Position numbers and translations under genes: made by a program. 64,000 nt of DNA from Escherichia phage Ge15: the sequence record PP359696.1; one strand, 5' to 3'. Of the stretch, positions 36,601 to 46,405 are shown one piece after another. Positions within the stretch are counted from its first letter, which is position 1, and each line of letters begins with the position of its first letter. The notes beneath the pieces were generated by a model. That model ran no database searches and was not told where the DNA came from. It saw only the letters and a list, made by a program, of their open reading frames with translations.

Positions 36601-36630
36601 GTTTACACAGGGTTTTAGTAGTGATACTAT
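36601..36630 (+). promoter_or_regulatory. T4-type early promoter
   Basis: gtttacacagggttttagtagtgatactat. Confidence 0.65.
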
Positions 36631-36664
36631 TACTCTATCAAAACAAAACCAAATGGAAATCAAA

Positions 36665-36898
36665 ATGAAAACTTTCAAAGAGTTTATCGCTGAATCTTCT
36701 GATGTAAAAGTTGAGTTTATTTACACCGGCAAGAAAGATAAAATGGGTGAAATGCCTCATGGAGTTCTTCGTGATGCATTAGATAATTTCGGTCAACTCG
36801 CCGCAGAAGATTACGGTGATAAAATTGTTGTTACTGGTCCTGCTGCAGTTATTGAAAAATGGGCAGCAGAAAATAAATCAATTTTTCGTAAAAAATAA
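36665..36898 (+). CDS. Internal-protein-like ORF with CTS (MKTFKEFIAE)
   Basis: Start trimmed to MKTFKEFIAESS; CTS consensus. Confidence 0.6.
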   Translation: MKTFKEFIAESSDVKVEFIYTGKKDKMGEMPHGVLRDALDNFGQLAAEDYGDKIVVTGPAAVIEKWAAENKSIFRKK

Positions 36899-36928
36899 GT
36901 TTACTTTTAGATAGGGTAGTGATACTAT
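36899..36928 (+). promoter_or_regulatory. T4-type early promoter with inverted repeat (GATAGGGTA / TACCCTATC) around the -10
   Basis: gtttacttttagatagggtagtgatactattaccctatc. Confidence 0.7.
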
Positions 36929-36956
36929 TACCCTATCAACTACCGAGGAGAATAAA

Positions 36957-37911: not shown

Positions 37912-37984
37912 TGGGAATTAGCCAAGTTGGTAAGGCACTGGATTTTGATTCCAGGATGCAAAGGTTCGAGTCCTTTATTCCCAG
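37912..37984 (+). tRNA. tRNA-Gln (UUG)
   Basis: Cloverleaf by eye; anticodon loop ttTTGat; T-arm aaaggTTCGAGTccttt. Confidence 0.8.
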
Positions 37985-37985
37985 C

Positions 37986-38072
37986 GCGAGAATGGTCAAA
38001 TTGGTAAAGGCACAGCACTTAAAATGCTGCGGAATTATTTCCTTGTGGGTTCGAGTCCCACTTCTCGCACCA
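37986..38072 (+). tRNA. tRNA-Leu (UAA), long variable arm, CCA encoded
   Basis: Acceptor gcgagaa/ttctcgc; anticodon loop ctTAAaa. Confidence 0.8.
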
Positions 38073-38077
38073 AATTT

Positions 38078-38151
<74 letters not shown>

Positions 38152-38197
38152 ATTTATGACTCGTCGTGAGACGCTCAGTTCTTTATTAGGGACTGAT

Positions 38198-38806
38198 ATG
38201 CATTTTTATCTTTATAAAATAACAAATAAAATTAATAATAAAATTTATATTGGTGTGCATTCTACCGAAAATTTAGATGATGGATATATGGGTTCTGGTA
38301 AATTATTAAAAAGAGCCCAAGATAAATATGGTATAGAAAATTTTTCTAAAGAAATATTAGAGTATTTTGATGATAAAGAATCTATGCTTGAAGCCGAGAA
38401 AAATATTGTCACAGAAGAGTTTTTAAATAGACCAGATGTGTATAATTTAAAACTTGGAGGTGAAGGTGGATGGGACCATATAAATAATTATCCTATGACA
38501 GATCAGCAACGCGAATTAATTTCATTGGGTGTTAAAAAGGCACATTCTAACGGAAAATTAAAAGGATGGTCTTCAAATGGATTAATGAAGAATGGCTTTA
38601 CTGGTAAAACTCATTCTCAAGAAGCTAAACGTAAAATAGCAAAAGCAAACGAAGCAAAAGTTTCTGCGGATGAAAGAAAAAGAAGAATAGAAATTTCTAA
38701 ATTATATGATTTTTCTAAGCGTGGTGAATTATCTAAATATGCTAAGCATATTGGCGTAAGTCATACTCAAGCAAAAAGAATTCTAAATCAAATTAACAAT
38801 ATATAA
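38198..38806 (+). mobile_element. segB: GIY-YIG homing endonuclease (SegB-like) inside the tRNA array
   Basis: N-terminal FYLYKITNKINNKIYIGVHS GIY-YIG motif; basic C-terminal DNA-binding region; T4 segB sits in the tRNA region. Confidence 0.8.
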
Positions 38807-38812
38807 ATATTT

Positions 38813-38902
38813 GGAGGCGTGGCAGAGTGGTTTAATGCACCGGTCTTGAAAACCGGCAGTCGCTCCGGCGACTCATAGGTTCAAATCCTATCGCCTCCGC
38901 CA
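38813..38902 (+). tRNA. tRNA-Ser (UGA), long variable arm, CCA encoded
   Basis: Acceptor ggaggcg/cgcctcc; anticodon loop ctTGAaa. Confidence 0.8.
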
Positions 38903-38908
38903 GTTTTT

Positions 38909-38984
38909 GCTGATTTAGCTCAGTAGGTAGAGCAACTCACTTGTAATGAGAAGGTCGGCGGTTCGATTCCGTCAATCAGCACCA
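38909..38984 (+). tRNA. tRNA-Thr (UGU), CCA encoded
   Basis: Anticodon loop ctTGTaa; T-arm GGTTCGATTCC. Confidence 0.75.
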
Positions 38985-38985
38985 A

Positions 38986-39060
38986 GGCCCTGTAGCTGGA
39001 AGGTTCAAGCAAGCGACTCATAATCGCCAGATGGTGGTTCAATTCCACCCAGGGCCACCA
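38986..39060 (+). tRNA. tRNA-Ile/Met (CAU), CCA encoded
   Basis: Acceptor ggccctg/cagggcc; anticodon loop ctCATaa; T4 has a CAU tRNA read as Ile. Confidence 0.7.
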
Positions 39061-39066
39061 AATTAA

Positions 39067-39153
39067 GGGGAGTTATCCCGTAGAGGTAGCGGTGTGGACT
39101 GTAAATTCATTGTCATTGCGACTCGGGTGGTTCGACTCCACCACTCCCCACCA
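39067..39153 (+). tRNA. tRNA-Tyr (GUA), type II, CCA encoded
   Basis: Acceptor ggggagt/actcccc; anticodon stem with G-U pairs, loop ctGTAaa; long variable arm. Confidence 0.6.
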
Positions 39154-39157
39154 ATTT

Positions 39158-39232
39158 GGATGTGTAGCTCAATGGCAGAGCGATCGCCTGTTAAGCGATT
39201 GGTTATAGGTTCGAATCCTATCACGTCCGCCA
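39158..39232 (+). tRNA. tRNA-Asn (GUU), CCA encoded
   Basis: Anticodon arm atcgc-ctGTTaa-gcgat; T-arm GGTTCGAATCC. Confidence 0.75.
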
Positions 39233-39346
39233 AATTTGTGACAACTGTCACATTAATATCTACTTGACGCGATTATAGGGGTTGAACTGATCACTCTTCT
39301 CTTAATTTCGTGTGAAGACATCTTGATTGTTGGAGTAGGTATTAAT

Positions 39347-39422
39347 GTGGCCGTAGTTCAGTTGGTAGAACTCGAGATTGTGATTCTCGTAGTCATGGGT
39401 TCGACTCCCATCGGTCACCCCA
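39347..39422 (+). tRNA. tRNA-His (GUG), CCA encoded
   Basis: Anticodon arm cgaga-ttGTGat-tctcg; T-arm GGTTCGACTCC. Confidence 0.7.
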
Positions 39423-39426
39423 ATTA

Positions 39427-39502
39427 CGGGGCATAGCTCAGAAGGAAGAGCAAGGACCTTCTAAGTCCTAGGTCGTAGGTTCGATCCCTACTGCCTCGAC
39501 CA
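39427..39502 (+). tRNA. tRNA-Arg (UCU), CCA encoded
   Basis: Anticodon arm aggac-ctTCTaa-gtcct; T-arm GGTTCGATCCC. Confidence 0.8.
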
Positions 39503-39520: not shown

Positions 39521-39871
39521 ATGAAAGGTAATGTTTATTTAGTAGTTCATGATTTAACATTTTACTTCAATGAATATGAAAAACATATCTCATTTCGTGA
39601 AATTAATTTACTTTATCAACATGCGGATTATATTTATATTCAAAACGAATTTGGTCATTGGCAATTTCTCAAAAATCGTTCATTTGGCTTAGATGGTTAC
39701 GAATACTTTGAACGTAAAGACCTTTTAGATAAAATTCCGTTATCTACGCAATATCAAAATCACAAATCTTTATATAAATGCCGTCCAATTCGAAATGTTG
39801 AATCCGCGTATGAAGCAATTGATTTATGGCGTGAACGCCGTAAACAGATTGATGCTTTAAAAGAATATTAA
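39521..39871 (+). CDS. Hypothetical protein
   Basis: 116-aa ORF immediately after tRNA-Arg. Confidence 0.5.
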   Translation: MKGNVYLVVHDLTFYFNEYEKHISFREINLLYQHADYIYIQNEFGHWQFLKNRSFGLDGYEYFERKDLLDKIPLSTQYQNHKSLYKCRPIRNVESAYEAIDLWRERRKQIDALKEY

Positions 39872-39879
39872 GAAACCGG

Positions 39880-40175
39880 GTCGCTACCGGTAAGTCGTCG
39901 GACTGATGTTCCCTGAGTAAGGAATTGCGTTAATAATCTTTGCGTTTATTGATGCCCTCTTACATCACAGCAGAAACGGCGCACCGAATTATCGATTCGA
40001 GGAAATATCTTTGCCGTAAGCCGAGTAGCGTTTTTGACGGAACGTTCGGATATGGTCGAGATATGGCCTTTTAAAAATATTGAGTAGCGTCAACTGCTTA
40101 ATAACCGGGTTCGAATCCCGGCGTTTCGTACAAACACTTGCCTTAGCAGGTGGAACCCCGACAAGGTTGCCGCAA
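39880..40175 (+). ncRNA. Candidate structured stable RNA region (possibly the T4 species 1/2 RNA equivalent)
   Basis: About 300 nt with no convincing + strand ORF; T-arm-like CCGGGTTCGAATCCCGG; ends at a terminator. Confidence 0.3.
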
Positions 40176-40205
40176 GGCTTAGCCCCAGCCGAAAGGTTGG
40201 GGCTT
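40176..40205 (+). terminator. Rho-independent terminator GCCCCAGCC-GAAA-GGTTGGGGC plus T-run
   Basis: GNRA hairpin and TTTTT. Confidence 0.75.
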
Positions 40206-40210
40206 TTTAG

Positions 40211-40218
40211 TATAAATA
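40211..40218 (+). promoter_or_regulatory. Late promoter TATAAATA upstream of the CTS ORF at 40255
   Basis: Exact TATAAATA 37 bp before the ATG. Confidence 0.6.
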
Positions 40219-40254
40219 AGTATATTAAAACCACGAATTAAAACAGGAAATAAG

Positions 40255-40728
40255 ATGAAATCATATGCTCAATTTTTAAATGAAGCGGTGTTAAATGAAG
40301 CATCTAGCACCGAAATTCAAGCTGTCGCAAAAGCTGCCATTGCCGCGGGTAAATATTCCTATAAAGATGCTTCCGATGAATCACGATTCCAATTTGCTCG
40401 TGATATGAAAGCCGAAGGATTTACAGGGAATGCAGTTAGTATGGCTTGGAAAAGTTTAGTTGCTACTGGAGCTGCTTTTGCAAAGGCTTCAGGTAAACCT
40501 GCTCCTAAGGCTGACCCTAAAGCAGCACAAGAGAAAAATATTGTTAAAGGAATTATCTCCAAATATGAAGCTATCCTTAAAGAGCTTTTAGTAATCAAAA
40601 CTGAAGGCCAAAAACTAGCTCGTGCTTATAGTTTCAAAGATAACCCACATGCTCACTCTCTTGAGTATGTTGAAGACATTCAAAAAATTATTAAAGACCG
40701 CATTTGGTCTGCTAAACAAATCAAATAA
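40255..40728 (+). CDS. Internal-protein-like ORF with CTS-like N-terminus (MKSYAQFLNEA)
   Basis: CTS-like start; late promoter; flanked by repeated terminator. Confidence 0.55.
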   Translation: MKSYAQFLNEAVLNEASSTEIQAVAKAAIAAGKYSYKDASDESRFQFARDMKAEGFTGNAVSMAWKSLVATGAAFAKASGKPAPKADPKAAQEKNIVKGIISKYEAILKELLVIKTEGQKLARAYSFKDNPHAHSLEYVEDIQKIIKDRIWSAKQIK

Positions 40729-40734
40729 CATTCT

Positions 40735-40764
40735 TAGCCCTAGCCGAAAGGTTGGGGCTTTTTG
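40735..40764 (+). terminator. Rho-independent terminator, near-identical copy of the one at 40176
   Basis: cttagccctagccgaaaggttggggcttttt. Confidence 0.75.
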
Positions 40765-40898: not shown

Positions 40899-40937
40899 GT
40901 TTACATCCTTGTCCTTCCATGGTACTATACAACTATC
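40899..40937 (+). promoter_or_regulatory. T4-type early promoter (GTTTAC ... GGTACTATACAACTATC)
   Basis: One of four copies of an identical 17-bp -10 cassette. Confidence 0.7.
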
Positions 40938-44581: not shown

Positions 44582-45112
<531 letters not shown>

Positions 45113-45116
45113 AGTT

Positions 45117-45157
45117 GTTTACTTTCTCCTAGAACTGTGATAGTATATTCACAGTTA
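45117..45157 (+). promoter_or_regulatory. T4-type early promoter with inverted repeat GAACTGTGA / TCACAGTT
   Basis: gtttactttctcctagaactgtgatagtatattcacagtt. Confidence 0.65.
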
Positions 45158-45171
45158 CTTGGAGGGATAAA

Positions 45172-45588
45172 ATGACTCGTATTAATTTGACTTTAGTATC
45201 TGAACTTGCTGATCAGCATTTAATCGCAGAATACCGTGAATTGCCACGTGTTTTTGGTATAGTTCGTAAACACGTGGCAAATGGTAAGCGGGTTAAAGAT
45301 TTTAAAATATCTTCCGAGTTTATTTTAGGTTCTGGTCATGTTACGTTCTTTTACGATAAGTTAGAATTTTTGCGAAAGCGTCAATCAGACATTATAACGG
45401 AATGCTTAAAACGTGGGTTTAGTATAAAAGATACTGAAGTTCCTGACATCAGTGATATTCCAGCAGAATGGAAAAATGATTATAATCCATGCAAATCAGC
45501 TATTAAATTGAGTCAACAACGACTCGATGAAAAAATTTTAATGAAGCCACACTGGTACAAGTATTACGGCAAAAATATTTACATTTAA
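45172..45588 (+). CDS. denV: Endonuclease V (pyrimidine dimer DNA glycosylase)
   Basis: 138 aa; [17 protein letters not shown]...[10 protein letters not shown] matches T4 DenV but is clearly diverged. Confidence 0.92.
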
Positions 45589-45597
45589 AGGAAACAT

Positions 45598-45915
45598 ATG
45601 AAAACGTATAAAGAATTTATTGCAGAATCTGCCGCAGGACAACGTGTAGAAGGCGGTTATATTTGGATTGAAGAAGTTGAGCCACCTAGTCGTACTTCTA
45701 CTGGTAAATGGAAAATTACTGTCGATGGTCCTGGCGGAAAACGCAGAACTTTAAAAGAAATTAATGGATATTATAGTGAAGCTCTTTCAGACGCGGGCAC
45801 TTATATGATGCAAATTATGATTAAAAATCCAGAAAATCGTTTTGCAGCTAGAGTTTTCCGCCGCATTGGAAATAAACTTTACGATGCATATTCTAAAAAT
45901 TTTCCTAAAGCATAA
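45598..45915 (+). CDS. Internal protein with CTS (IPII-like)
   Basis: MKTYKEFIAES CTS; 105 aa basic protein. Confidence 0.7.
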   Translation: MKTYKEFIAESAAGQRVEGGYIWIEEVEPPSRTSTGKWKITVDGPGGKRRTLKEINGYYSEALSDAGTYMMQIMIKNPENRFAARVFRRIGNKLYDAYSKNFPKA

Positions 45916-45931
45916 AAATTAAAGGAAACAT

Positions 45932-46405
45932 ATGAAAACATATCAAGAATTTATTACTGAAGCAGCTATTAATTCTCAAATTATTGCTGAATCTTTTACT
46001 GATCTTTTGAAATTTAAAAAAGGTCAAAAAATCACTGCTGTATTGGATGATGGTACAGAAGTTGAGATGGATGTACAGGGATATAATTATGCAGTAGATG
46101 GAAAACTGTATAATAAATCTCATGCTAAATTTGATTCATTTGACGACTTTGTTAATACAGTTGAAGATGAAAAAACTCGTAGATCCATTGCAACTGGTGA
46201 TGCTAAGGTTCTTATGGCACACGGCCATGAACGCATTCGCGCTAAGCAGAATAAAATGGGCGAAGATAATTTCGCATTAGTTGGTTATCAATCTGGTAAA
46301 CAAACTTATGGTTATCAGCGTACTGCTACCATGTATAACAAAAATGGTAAAATCGCTTTCGTGAATAGTAAAGGTTCTGTTCAGTACGTTAAATCGTTCA
46401 AATAA
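45932..46405 (+). CDS. Internal protein with CTS (IPIII-like)
   Basis: MKTYQEFITEAA CTS; 157 aa. Confidence 0.7.
   Translation: MKTYQEFITEAAINSQIIAESFTDLLKFKKGQKITAVLDDGTEVEMDVQGYNYAVDGKLYNKSHAKFDSFDDFVNTVEDEKTRRSIATGDAKVLMAHGHERIRAKQNKMGEDNFALVGYQSGKQTYGYQRTATMYNKNGKIAFVNSKGSVQYVKSFK

What the first reader, a model, noticed from the sequence alone, without database searches (positions are those of the whole stretch)
40176..40764. CTS-like ORF with a late promoter, flanked by two copies of the same terminator
ORF 40255-40728 starts MKSYAQFLNEA, a diverged CTS. It has a TATAAATA late promoter 37 bp upstream, consistent with expression during head assembly. It is bracketed by two ~31-bp copies of the same terminator hairpin (CTTAGCCC[C/T]AGCCGAAAGGTTGGGGCTTTTT at 40176 and 40735). 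The duplicated terminator suggests the unit was inserted as a cassette.
Basis: partly seen in the sequence, partly recalled or inferred. Interest (0 to 1): 0.55.

Follow-up and report, generated by a model that had tools for sequence, protein, structure and literature searches.

The report
Unannotated T4-type internal-protein gene cassette
This is a small late-gene cassette in a T4-like phage whose protein carries the signal that T4 uses to load proteins into its head for injection; it is common among T4 relatives but missing from T4 itself, so it has stayed labelled "hypothetical".

Summary
ORF 40255-40728 (157 aa) has TATAAATA at 40211-40218. It is bracketed by two 31-bp copies (30/31 identical) of one strong terminator hairpin at 40178-40208 and 40733-40763.

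The window is a Tequatrovirus. The unit lies between the tRNA/rnaD/rnaC operon and gene e.8. T4 and PST have a single hairpin there, with the same outer flanks, so the 555-bp unit is an indel bounded exactly by the repeat. The hairpin occurs only once or twice per genome.

The leader MKSYAQFLNEA keeps the four experimentally important capsid-targeting-sequence positions: Y4 and F7 for targeting, L8 and E10 for processing. Only four of 6,158 possible start sites in the window match this core, and the other three are the canonical internal-protein genes. Orthologs in five named Tevenvirinae genera plus unclassified Klebsiella/Yersinia-type phages keep the leader, and some are closer to the consensus (MKTYNEFL.E, MKFKEFLAEA).

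The site holds zero, one or two such cassettes; the second is a divergent paralog of the RB69ORF149c type.

Packaging, late transcription and the mature protein's function remain untested. The fold is uninformative, and the usable virion mass-spectrometry data were silent.

Because the gene sits at this locus in several genera, T4 more likely lost it than the window phage gained it.

Verdict: a new member of a known kind, moderately interesting.

The parts
39992..40130 (+). rnaC (species 1 RNA) homolog, the last gene of the tRNA/rnaD/rnaC transcription unit; context for hairpin copy 1
   Evidence: 98% identical alignment to the T4 rnaD/rnaC region; coordinates transferred from the T4 annotation
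40178..40208 (+). Hairpin copy 1 (stem 40181-40204, GAAA loop, T5). It is the intrinsic terminator of the tRNA/rnaC operon and the left boundary of the cassette
   Evidence: T4 has this copy with the same left flank
40211..40218 (+). T4-type late promoter box TATAAATA, 2 nt after the terminator T-run
   Evidence: conserved at this position in 12 of 19 related loci, with AATAAATA or CATAAATA variants in others
40245..40249 (+). Shine-Dalgarno AGGAA, 5 nt before the ATG
   Evidence: read directly from the sequence
40255..40728 (+). ORF of 157 aa, member of phrog_2280; candidate internal (head-packaged) protein
40255..40299 (+). Leader MKSYAQFLNEAVLNE: CTS-like propeptide with two L-N-E sites for the prohead protease (after E10 and after E15)
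   Evidence: predicted disordered, pLDDT below 50 for residues 4-14
40300..40488 (+). Conserved three-helix N-domain (residues 16-78; invariant A-G-K-Y-S-Y and other positions)
   Evidence: this is the only part shared at the sequence level with the Klebsiella/Yersinia-phage versions
40489..40536 (+). Pro/Lys/Ala-rich flexible linker (residues 79-94)
40537..40725 (+). C-terminal antiparallel helical hairpin domain (residues 95-157); replaced by a different helical domain in the Klebsiella/Yersinia versions
40733..40763 (+). Hairpin copy 2 (stem 40736-40759). It is the terminator of the cassette and its right boundary
   Evidence: its right flank matches the T4 sequence that follows T4's single copy
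40209..40763 (+). The 555-bp unit (promoter + ORF + one hairpin) that is present here and absent from T4 and PST
40900..40928 (+). Early (sigma-70-type) promoter of e.8 (TTTACA-17-TACTAT with TG); shows that the next transcription unit starts after the cassette
   Evidence: conserved in T4

Best explanation
The unit is a self-contained late-gene cassette that encodes a previously unrecognised T4-type internal protein.

Expression. Early and middle transcripts from the tRNA/rnaD/rnaC operon stop at hairpin copy 1. The TATAAATA box 2 nt further on then drives late, gp55-dependent transcription of the ORF, which ends at hairpin copy 2. The protein is therefore made mainly when proheads assemble.

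Packaging. The N-terminal leader acts as a capsid targeting sequence that carries the protein into the prohead scaffolding core. The prohead protease gp21 then cuts after L-N-E (E10 and/or E15). This releases a basic mature protein of about 15.5 kDa, which stays in the head with the DNA and is injected into the next host. By analogy with IPI* and IPIII, it probably acts there against a host function such as a defence system.

Mobility. The two hairpin copies provide about 31 bp of homology. The T4 recombination system can use this homology to excise, or by exchange between co-infecting phages to re-insert, the whole unit. This explains why related phages have zero, one or two such cassettes at exactly this site.

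Shown here: the anatomy, the precise indel boundaries, conservation of the leader, promoter and hairpins, and the locus polymorphism.

Inferred: late-only transcription, packaging, cleavage, injection and the anti-host role.
For: Anatomy and repeat statistics.

Genome context. The window is a Tequatrovirus, with the unit between rnaC and e.8.

Indel boundaries. T4 and PST have a single hairpin with the same outer flanks. The hairpin occurs 1-2 times per genome across 812 phage records and 1,299 places.

CTS evidence.
- Targeting depends on residues 4 and 7 and processing on residues 8 and 10 (PMC9026906).
- gp21 cuts after Glu in I/L-x-E (PMC12991175).
- The ORF has Y4, F7, L8 and E10, plus a second LNE.
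- The motif matches only 4 of 6,158 candidate starts, the other three being the canonical CTS genes; shuffles give 0.24.
- Ortholog leaders are MKTYNEFLNES, MKTYNEFLMTEA, MKSYAEFLTEQ, MKFKEFLAEA, MLKFNEFLAEG, MINFSDFLNEG and MITFNDILAEG, in proteins down to about 26-40% identity.
- The leader is predicted to be disordered. The mature part is basic (pI 9.5), like the CTS proteins at 45598 and 45932.

Late promoter. TATAAATA directly follows the upstream hairpin in 12 of 19 loci, with one-mismatch variants in others. No sigma-70 promoter is predicted upstream.

Polymorphic locus.
- RB69 and vB_EcoM_G50 carry a second CTS ORF there (MKTYAEFLTEA...), with its own late-like box and hairpin. It is found in 165 records and belongs to the same PHROG.
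- KP1 versus ValerieMcCarty03 is an independent presence/absence case.

Precedents. Repeat-mediated ORF excision is documented for PeSL cassettes (PMC2839356). IPIII is needed in some hosts, and IPI inhibits GmrSD (PMC9391042; PMC3012670).
Against: There is no direct evidence of packaging. The only virion LC-MS/MS of a phage with an identical protein (SH7) did not list it. That run found just 14 proteins and none of the canonical internal proteins either, so it is uninformative.

The leader is only 6/11 identical to MKTYQEFIAEA.

The mature part has no similarity to IPI, IPII or IPIII and no informative fold or family match, so the anti-host role rests on analogy.

The N-domain is unusually conserved across genera for an arms-race effector.

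In one Yersinia-phage-type locus no late promoter box lies in the 95 nt upstream. In Mosigvirus-type loci the box is AATAAATA, whose activity is unknown.

An internal L-K-E at residues 108-110 could lead to further cleavage.
Confidence: 0.6

Rival explanations
1. A late-expressed but non-packaged accessory protein. On this view the N-terminal resemblance to the CTS is a coincidence of a short amphipathic N-terminus or serves another purpose, and the protein acts in the cytoplasm of the producing cell late in infection.
For: Identity to the canonical CTS is only 6/11. The protein is not listed in the SH7 virion proteome. The N-domain is strongly conserved across genera, which is more typical of a housekeeping interaction than of an arms-race effector. 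No record names it an internal protein.
Against: The four functionally mapped CTS positions are all retained, and the motif is otherwise found only in the three canonical CTS genes of the window. The leader is the best-conserved feature of the extreme N-terminus down to about 26% overall identity, and it converges on the canonical consensus in several lineages. A paralog at the same site carries MKTYAEFLTEA. The SH7 dataset also missed all canonical internal proteins.
Confidence: 0.2
2. A prohead-core accessory protein. The leader targets it into the scaffolding core, but gp21 degrades it to small peptides (as happens to gp22 and gp68-type core proteins), so it has an assembly role and is not injected as a functional protein.
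For: It has a CTS-like leader and late expression, as the main explanation requires. In addition there is an internal L-K-E site at residues 108-110, and a long helical hairpin of the kind common in scaffolding proteins.
Against: The gene is dispensable: T4, PST and ValerieMcCarty03 lack it, and frameshifted alleles exist. The internal LKE lies inside a predicted helix. The locus polymorphism, with 0-2 cassettes, resembles that of host-range-type internal proteins rather than assembly factors.
Confidence: 0.12
3. Not a functional gene: a chance ORF between two copies of a duplicated terminator.
For: None beyond the lack of any functional annotation.
Against: The ORF is conserved in at least 469 phage records at full length. 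It has orthologs in five named genera plus unclassified Klebsiella/Yersinia-type phages, in-frame indels only, a good Shine-Dalgarno, a PHROG family (E = 1.6e-60), and a confidently folded model for residues 18-71 and 88-154.
Confidence: 0.01

Closest known systems
T4 internal proteins IPI, IPII, IPIII and the polymorphic IP cassettes of T-even phages (Repoila et al. 1994, EMBO J 13:4181, cited from my own knowledge and via PMC9026906; Mullaney & Black 1996)
   Same: Shared features: a short N-terminal leader with the CTS core (aromatic at 4, Phe at 7, aliphatic at 8, Glu at 10) and an I/L-x-E protease site; a small, basic, non-essential protein; mature parts unrelated between family members; residence in a presence/absence-polymorphic site flanked by repeated regulatory DNA; and a location in the same early-region neighbourhood (ipI - tRNA - e - ipII/III).
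   Different: It lies at a third site (rnaC/e.8), not at the ipI or ipII/ipIII loci. The flanking repeat is a terminator hairpin, not the roughly 70-bp early/late promoter element; the window's own gene at 36665 shows the classic form. It has a dedicated late promoter and no early one. The leader is more diverged (6/11). The mature part has a two-domain build that is conserved across genera. Packaging has never been shown, and every record examined calls it hypothetical.
PeSL (promoter-early stem-loop) mobile regulatory cassettes of T4-type phages (Arbiol et al. 2010, PMC2839356; Comeau et al. 2014, PMC4122927)
   Same: An accessory ORF is bracketed by two copies of a conserved regulatory element containing a G/C-rich stem-loop terminator. 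A close relative has a single element and no ORF at the same site. This is consistent with excision or insertion by homologous recombination between the elements, and the cassette brings its own promoter and terminator.
   Different: There is no sigma-70 early promoter in the repeated element; a late promoter abuts the left copy only. The element is not dispersed through hyperplastic regions and occurs only at this locus, 1-2 (rarely 3) copies per genome. Mini-circles were not tested.
RB69ORF149c-type protein (RB69, vB_EcoM_G50 gp133 and 165 phage records)
   Same: It occupies the same locus and has the same build: a late-like box, the CTS leader MKTYAEFLTEA, an N-domain, a Pro/Lys/Ala linker, a helical C-domain and its own hairpin. 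It belongs to the same PHROG, phrog_2280.
   Different: Its mature sequence is highly diverged; profile comparison finds only a weak C-terminal match. It can replace our ORF (RB69) or follow it (G50).

Membership tests
T4-type internal proteins (CTS-targeted, gp21-processed, head-packaged) | N-terminal capsid targeting sequence: residues 4 and 7 needed for targeting, residues 8 and 10 for processing (IPIII mutagenesis) | tested here: met
   The ORF has Y4, F7, L8 and E10. The motif is found only here and in the 3 canonical CTS genes among 6,158 candidate starts; shuffles give 0.24. It is conserved in orthologs.
T4-type internal proteins (CTS-targeted, gp21-processed, head-packaged) | Prohead-protease site I/L-x-E at the end of the leader | tested here: met
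   L8-N9-E10 and L13-N14-E15 are present. The column equivalent to E15 is invariant in the 8-sequence family alignment. This is sequence-level evidence only; cleavage was not observed.
T4-type internal proteins (CTS-targeted, gp21-processed, head-packaged) | Physical presence of the processed protein in the virion and injection with the DNA | not testable with these tools
   The SH7 virion LC-MS/MS (identical protein) lists 14 proteins and no internal proteins at all, so it is uninformative. The ValerieMcCarty03/04 MS detects canonical IPs, but that phage lacks the cassette. The AR1 proteome paper is not held.
T4-type internal proteins (CTS-targeted, gp21-processed, head-packaged) | Expression at the time of prohead assembly (late promoter) | tested here: inconclusive
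   A consensus TATAAATA lies 36 nt before the ATG and is conserved in 12 of 19 loci. No sigma-70 promoter is predicted, and a terminator lies directly upstream. No transcript data are available.
T4-type internal proteins (CTS-targeted, gp21-processed, head-packaged) | Location in one of the two classical polymorphic IP loci (next to ipI, or between e and denV), flanked by the repeated early/late promoter element | tested here: not met
   It lies between rnaC and e.8 and is flanked by a repeated terminator instead. The window's classical IP genes are at 36665, 45598 and 45932. The site is nevertheless polymorphic, with 0-2 CTS cassettes.
PeSL mobile regulatory cassettes | Repeated composite element combining a strong sigma-70-like early promoter and a stem-loop | tested here: not met
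   The repeat contains only the stem-loop and T-run. No sigma-70-like site is predicted at either copy, and a late promoter follows copy 1 only.
PeSL mobile regulatory cassettes | The ORF flanked by two elements is replaced by a single element in a close relative | tested here: met
   T4 and PST have one hairpin with identical outer flanks.
PeSL mobile regulatory cassettes | Many dispersed copies in hyperplastic regions | tested here: not met
   There are 2 copies in the 64-kb window and 1-2, rarely 3, per complete genome.
PeSL mobile regulatory cassettes | Formation of excised mini-circles during infection | not testable with these tools
   This requires inverse PCR on infected cells (method in PMC2839356).
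Intrinsic (rho-independent) terminator | G+C-rich stem-loop followed by a T-run | tested here: met
   Each copy has a 10-bp stem with 6-7 G-C pairs, a GAAA loop and T5; -20.6 and -18.3 kcal/mol. Other groups annotated the same feature as a terminator in the G50, NR1, Aplg8 and fPS-2 records.

The most novel reading that the evidence does not exclude
phrog_2280 proteins would be a widespread, overlooked class of injected T-even internal proteins. They would be encoded at a third internal-protein locus (rnaC/e.8) in late-only cassettes of the form terminator - late promoter - CTS ORF - terminator, which are gained, lost and duplicated by recombination between the terminator copies. Their conserved N-domain and swappable helical C-domain would neutralise a host defence or another early host function in hosts that T4 itself does not need to face.
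Probability: 0.35. Interest if true: 0.6.

Novelty: new member of a known kind. Interest (0 to 1): 0.45.

Why it matters
Internal proteins are the first phage proteins to reach the host cytoplasm. The two that have been studied functionally counter host defences or decide host range: IPI* acts against GmrSD, and IPIII is needed in ECOR17.

This family is in roughly 500 sequenced T-even-type phages, many of them therapy or biocontrol candidates. It is absent from T4, which explains why it has never been studied and is labelled "hypothetical" in every record examined.

Recognising it as a candidate injected protein gives a cheap, direct experiment: virion MS, leader-GFP targeting, and deletion followed by plating on strain panels. 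It also adds a third internal-protein locus, and a late-promoter/terminator variant of the repeat-mediated cassette shuffling already known in these phages.

Tried and rejected

(2) Virion proteomics.
- The SH7 dataset is too shallow.
- The ValerieMcCarty03/04 dataset is deep, but that phage has an empty site, and the stored supplement is truncated.
- The fPS-2/65/90 paper has no proteomics.
- The AR1 paper, Repoila 1994 and the T4 genome review are not held.

(3) Strict concerted evolution of the two hairpin copies. I rejected this idea. The stem variants GACC, AGCC and TTCC occur in mixed combinations between the upstream and downstream copies across genomes. That pattern fits recombinational shuffling but not homogenisation.

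(4) The idea that the ORF at this site in RB69 is an unrelated alternative cargo. I rejected this: it belongs to the same PHROG and is a divergent paralog.

(5) Homology of the mature part to IPIII. None was found beyond the first 8 residues.

(6) Recent insertion into the window phage. This is unlikely, because the gene occupies the same position after the tRNA cluster in Tequatro-, Mosig-, Dhaka- and Jiaodavirus and in unclassified Klebsiella-phage loci.

Full report
**1. What is there**

The window is a T4-like (Tequatrovirus) genome. The 1.8 kb around the finding is 97% identical to phages KIT03, slur03 and wV7, and matches 773 phage records. The + strand runs in the direction of T4 early transcription.

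The layout around the finding is as follows:
- a CTS gene of the ipI locus at 36665;
- a cluster of ten tRNA genes at 37912-39502, split by a GIY-YIG seg-type gene;
- an extra ORF at 39521-39871;
- rnaD and rnaC homologs at about 39868-40130;
- the unit in question;
- the early promoter of e.8 at about 40900-40928, followed by e.8, e.7 and e.6;
- the lysozyme gene e, with its two late promoters at 44584 and 44597;
- denV, then two more CTS genes at 45598 and 45932.

- ORF 40255-40728, 157 aa, starting MKSYAQFLNEA.
- TATAAATA at 40211-40218.
- A Shine-Dalgarno AGGAA at 40245-40249.
- Two 31-bp copies of CTTAGCCC[C/T]AGCCGAAAGGTTGGGGCTTTTT at 40178-40208 and 40733-40763. They are 30/31 identical, and none of 100 shuffles gave a match.
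- Each copy folds as a 10-bp stem with a GAAA loop and a T-run, at -20.6 and -18.3 kcal/mol.

**2. The repeat marks a true cassette boundary**

T4 has no such ORF. After rnaC comes a 48-nt trailer, then one hairpin (TTAGCCCCGACCGAAAGGTTGGGGCTTTTT), then GGTATCTAAGCCTTTCCAGACC..., and then the e.8 promoter.

The T4 left flank aligns with the left flank of the window's copy 1 at 98% identity. The T4 right flank aligns with the sequence after copy 2 at 93-95%. The difference between the two genomes is therefore exactly one repeat period of 555 bp: late promoter, ORF and one hairpin. Yersinia phage PST has the same empty configuration.

A 41-nt query spanning the hairpin hits 812 phage records at 1,299 places. 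Phages that carry the ORF have two places, and T4/PST-type phages have one. The hairpin is thus specific to this locus and is not a dispersed family.

**3. The leader behaves like a capsid targeting sequence**

According to the review of Black's work (PMC9026906), the first 10 residues of IPIII suffice for packaging. Targeting depends mainly on residues 4 and 7, and processing on residues 8 and 10. gp21 cuts after Glu in I/L-x-E (PMC12991175).

The ORF has Y4, F7, L8 and E10, followed by a second L-N-E at residues 13-15.

I scanned every ATG, GTG and TTG in all six frames of the window for M..[YF]..F[ILV].E. Four of 6,158 candidates match: the three canonical CTS genes (36665 MKTFKEFIAES, 45598 MKTYKEFIAES, 45932 MKTYQEFITEA) and this ORF. 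Codon-block shuffles give 0.24 matches on average.

More telling, the leader is conserved in orthologs that have otherwise diverged strongly, and several are closer to the canonical consensus than the window's copy:
- MKTYNEFLNES and MKTYNEFLTEQ (Dhakavirus)
- MKSYAEFLTEQ (Mosigvirus)
- MKTYAQFLMTEA
- MKFKEFLAEA (Jiaodavirus)
- MITFNDILAEG (Klebsiella phages of the vB_Kpn_F48 type)
- MLEYSEFLKELFCEA (Yersinia phage fHe-Yen9-01)
- MLKFNEFLAEG, MINFSDFLNEG and MKSFSSFLNEG (metagenomic relatives)

In the family alignment the Glu of the second site (E15) is invariant. AlphaFold2 leaves residues 4-14 at pLDDT below 50, as expected for a propeptide. The predicted mature protein is about 15.5 kDa with pI 9.5, similar to the basic CTS proteins at 45598 and 45932.

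At the DNA level the leader codons are only 18-24/33 identical to the canonical ones. The resemblance is therefore maintained at the peptide level and is not a recent recombination scar.

**4. The regulatory build is conserved**

I examined 19 loci from five named genera and unclassified phages. The ORF is always preceded by a terminator hairpin:
- In 12 loci the hairpin is followed within 2-5 nt by an exact TATAAATA.
- Mosigvirus-type loci have AATAAATA.
- The F48-type Klebsiella-phage loci have CATAAATA further upstream.
- One Yersinia-type locus has none within 95 nt.

No sigma-70-like promoter is predicted between the upstream terminator and the ATG in the window. The simplest reading is that the tRNA-operon terminator insulates the gene from early transcription, and that the gene is switched on from its own late promoter. 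This is inferred from sequence; I found no transcript data for a carrier phage.

**5. The site is a polymorphic locus for CTS genes**

The ORF family (phrog_2280, E = 1.6e-60) occurs in 511 phage records, 469 of them at full length. It always lies directly after the tRNA/rnaC region.

RB69 carries a different-looking ORF at the same place. This is RB69ORF149c, which starts MKTYAEFLTEAAKLPSEADL. That type occurs in 165 records.

In vB_EcoM_G50 the two types lie in tandem. Our ORF and its hairpin come first. Then come an AATAAATA box, the second CTS ORF (187 aa) and a hairpin of its own, followed by the same right flank as in T4. The second ORF also scores in phrog_2280 (E = 8e-53). It is therefore a divergent paralog with the same architecture: leader, N-domain, Pro/Lys/Ala linker and helical C-domain.

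Within Jiaodavirus, KP1 has the cassette and ValerieMcCarty03 has a clean empty site. The locus thus holds zero, one or two cassettes.

Because the gene is at this position in several genera, ancestral presence with repeated loss is more parsimonious than insertion into the window phage. Exchange between co-infecting phages can move it either way.

The flanking direct repeat of the same hairpin is confined to Tequatrovirus and Mosigvirus. In Dhakavirus and Jiaodavirus the downstream hairpin is a different one. Across genomes the stem variants (GACC, AGCC, TTCC) combine freely between the two positions. That pattern fits recombinational shuffling rather than strict homogenisation.

**6. The protein**

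The AlphaFold2 model (mean pLDDT 75) shows four parts:
- a disordered leader;
- a three-helix N-domain (residues 18-71, pLDDT 80-90), carrying the invariant AGKYSY motif and several other invariant positions;
- a flexible Pro/Lys/Ala linker;
- a long antiparallel helical hairpin (residues 88-154).

The Klebsiella/Yersinia versions keep the N-domain but have a different helical C-domain.

I found no Pfam, PADLOC or PDB-sequence match. Fold searches return only family members or generic helical hairpins. The HMMER profile search of 1.84 billion representatives finds just 13 proteins, all of this type. The family resembles the canonical internal proteins only over the leader. The function of the mature protein is therefore unknown, and an anti-host role rests on analogy with IPI* and IPIII.

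**7. Direct evidence sought and not found**

- Shigella phage SH7 encodes an identical protein. Its published LC-MS/MS lists only 14 virion proteins and none of the canonical internal proteins, so the absence of this protein means nothing.
- The deep Jiaodavirus virion proteome detects the canonical internal proteins (66 PSM), but that phage lacks the cassette.
- Other candidate papers were not held or had no proteomics.

**8. Comparison with what is known**

The closest known kind is the T-even internal-protein cassette of Repoila et al. 1994 (own knowledge; cited in PMC9026906): small unrelated ORFs that share an 11-residue leader, in polymorphic loci flanked by repeated regulatory DNA. The window's gene at 36665 shows that classic form, with GTTTAC...GTGATACTATTAC repeated on both sides.

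The present unit differs in four ways:
- the locus (rnaC/e.8);
- the nature of the repeat (a terminator);
- its late-only promoter;
- a mature part that is conserved across genera.

The mechanism of gain and loss matches the PeSL model (PMC2839356). However, the element lacks the early promoter that defines a PeSL, and it is not dispersed through the genome. I therefore file the unit as a new member of the internal-protein kind and as PeSL-like in behaviour, not as a PeSL.

**9. Verdict**

My confidence that the protein is a CTS-targeted, gp21-processed head protein is about 0.6. My confidence that it is a real, late-expressed accessory gene in a repeat-bounded cassette is above 0.9.

Interest is moderate. 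The principle is known, but this is a widespread, unannotated candidate injected protein that T4-centred work could not have seen.

Noticed in passing
window 36601-36935: The CTS gene at 36665-36898 (MKTFKEFIAES, phrog_8111 'internal virion protein') is flanked on both sides by a repeated early-promoter element (GTTTAC...GTGATACTATTAC at about 36601-36636 and about 36900-36935). This is the classic internal-protein cassette arrangement, and it contrasts with the terminator repeat of the finding.
   Followed up: partly
window 44629-46405: The gene order here is e, denV, then two CTS genes (45598, 105 aa, phrog_3966 'unknown function'; 45932, 157 aa, phrog_3155 'internal virion protein'). T4 has e, ipIII, ipII, denV. 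Neither CTS gene has its own exact TATAAATA; the nearest are the two late promoters in front of e (44584, 44597).
   Followed up: partly
window 38156-38806: A GIY-YIG seg-type homing-endonuclease gene (annotated segD in AR1) splits the tRNA cluster between tRNA-Gly and tRNA-Ser. In T4, segB sits between tRNA-Ile and tRNA-Arg. The tRNA set also differs: 10 tRNAs here, including Tyr, Asn and His, against 8 in T4.
   Followed up: no
window 39521-39871: A 116-aa ORF (phrog_3355, unknown function) lies between tRNA-Arg and rnaD. In T4 the two RNA genes are adjacent. This is another presence/absence difference inside the tRNA operon.
   Followed up: no
window 40540-40552 (GAGAAAAATATT); L011 about 976-990 (A7 run): An A-run at the linker/C-domain junction coincides with frameshift-truncated database alleles that keep only the leader and N-domain (P0006 with 10 member sequences, P0008, P0009). 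These could be sequencing errors, pseudogenes or slippage-prone variants.
   Followed up: partly
L011 (vB_EcoM_G50) 1182-1900: The second cassette's own hairpin (CCCTATC-TAAAT-GATAGGG, -10.5 kcal/mol) is unrelated in its stem, but it is followed by the same CTTTTTGG[C/T]ATCTAGGCCTTTC right flank. This suggests that the junctions lie at the T-run.
   Followed up: partly
L006 (phage 04086, OR842557) upstream of position 901: The record contains NNN and a stray fragment of this same ORF (coding GKYSYKDASDEE) just upstream of the hairpin. This is most likely an assembly artefact.
   Followed up: no
L010 (phage LQ5) 1540-2168 and L009 (vB_EcoM_005) 2132-2686: In Dhakavirus-type genomes a 184-aa predicted membrane ORF (MKLLKYLSWVLLVP...) follows the CTS ORF. 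In LQ5 the CTS ORF is missing, and the hairpin plus TATAAATA is joined directly to this membrane ORF.
   Followed up: partly
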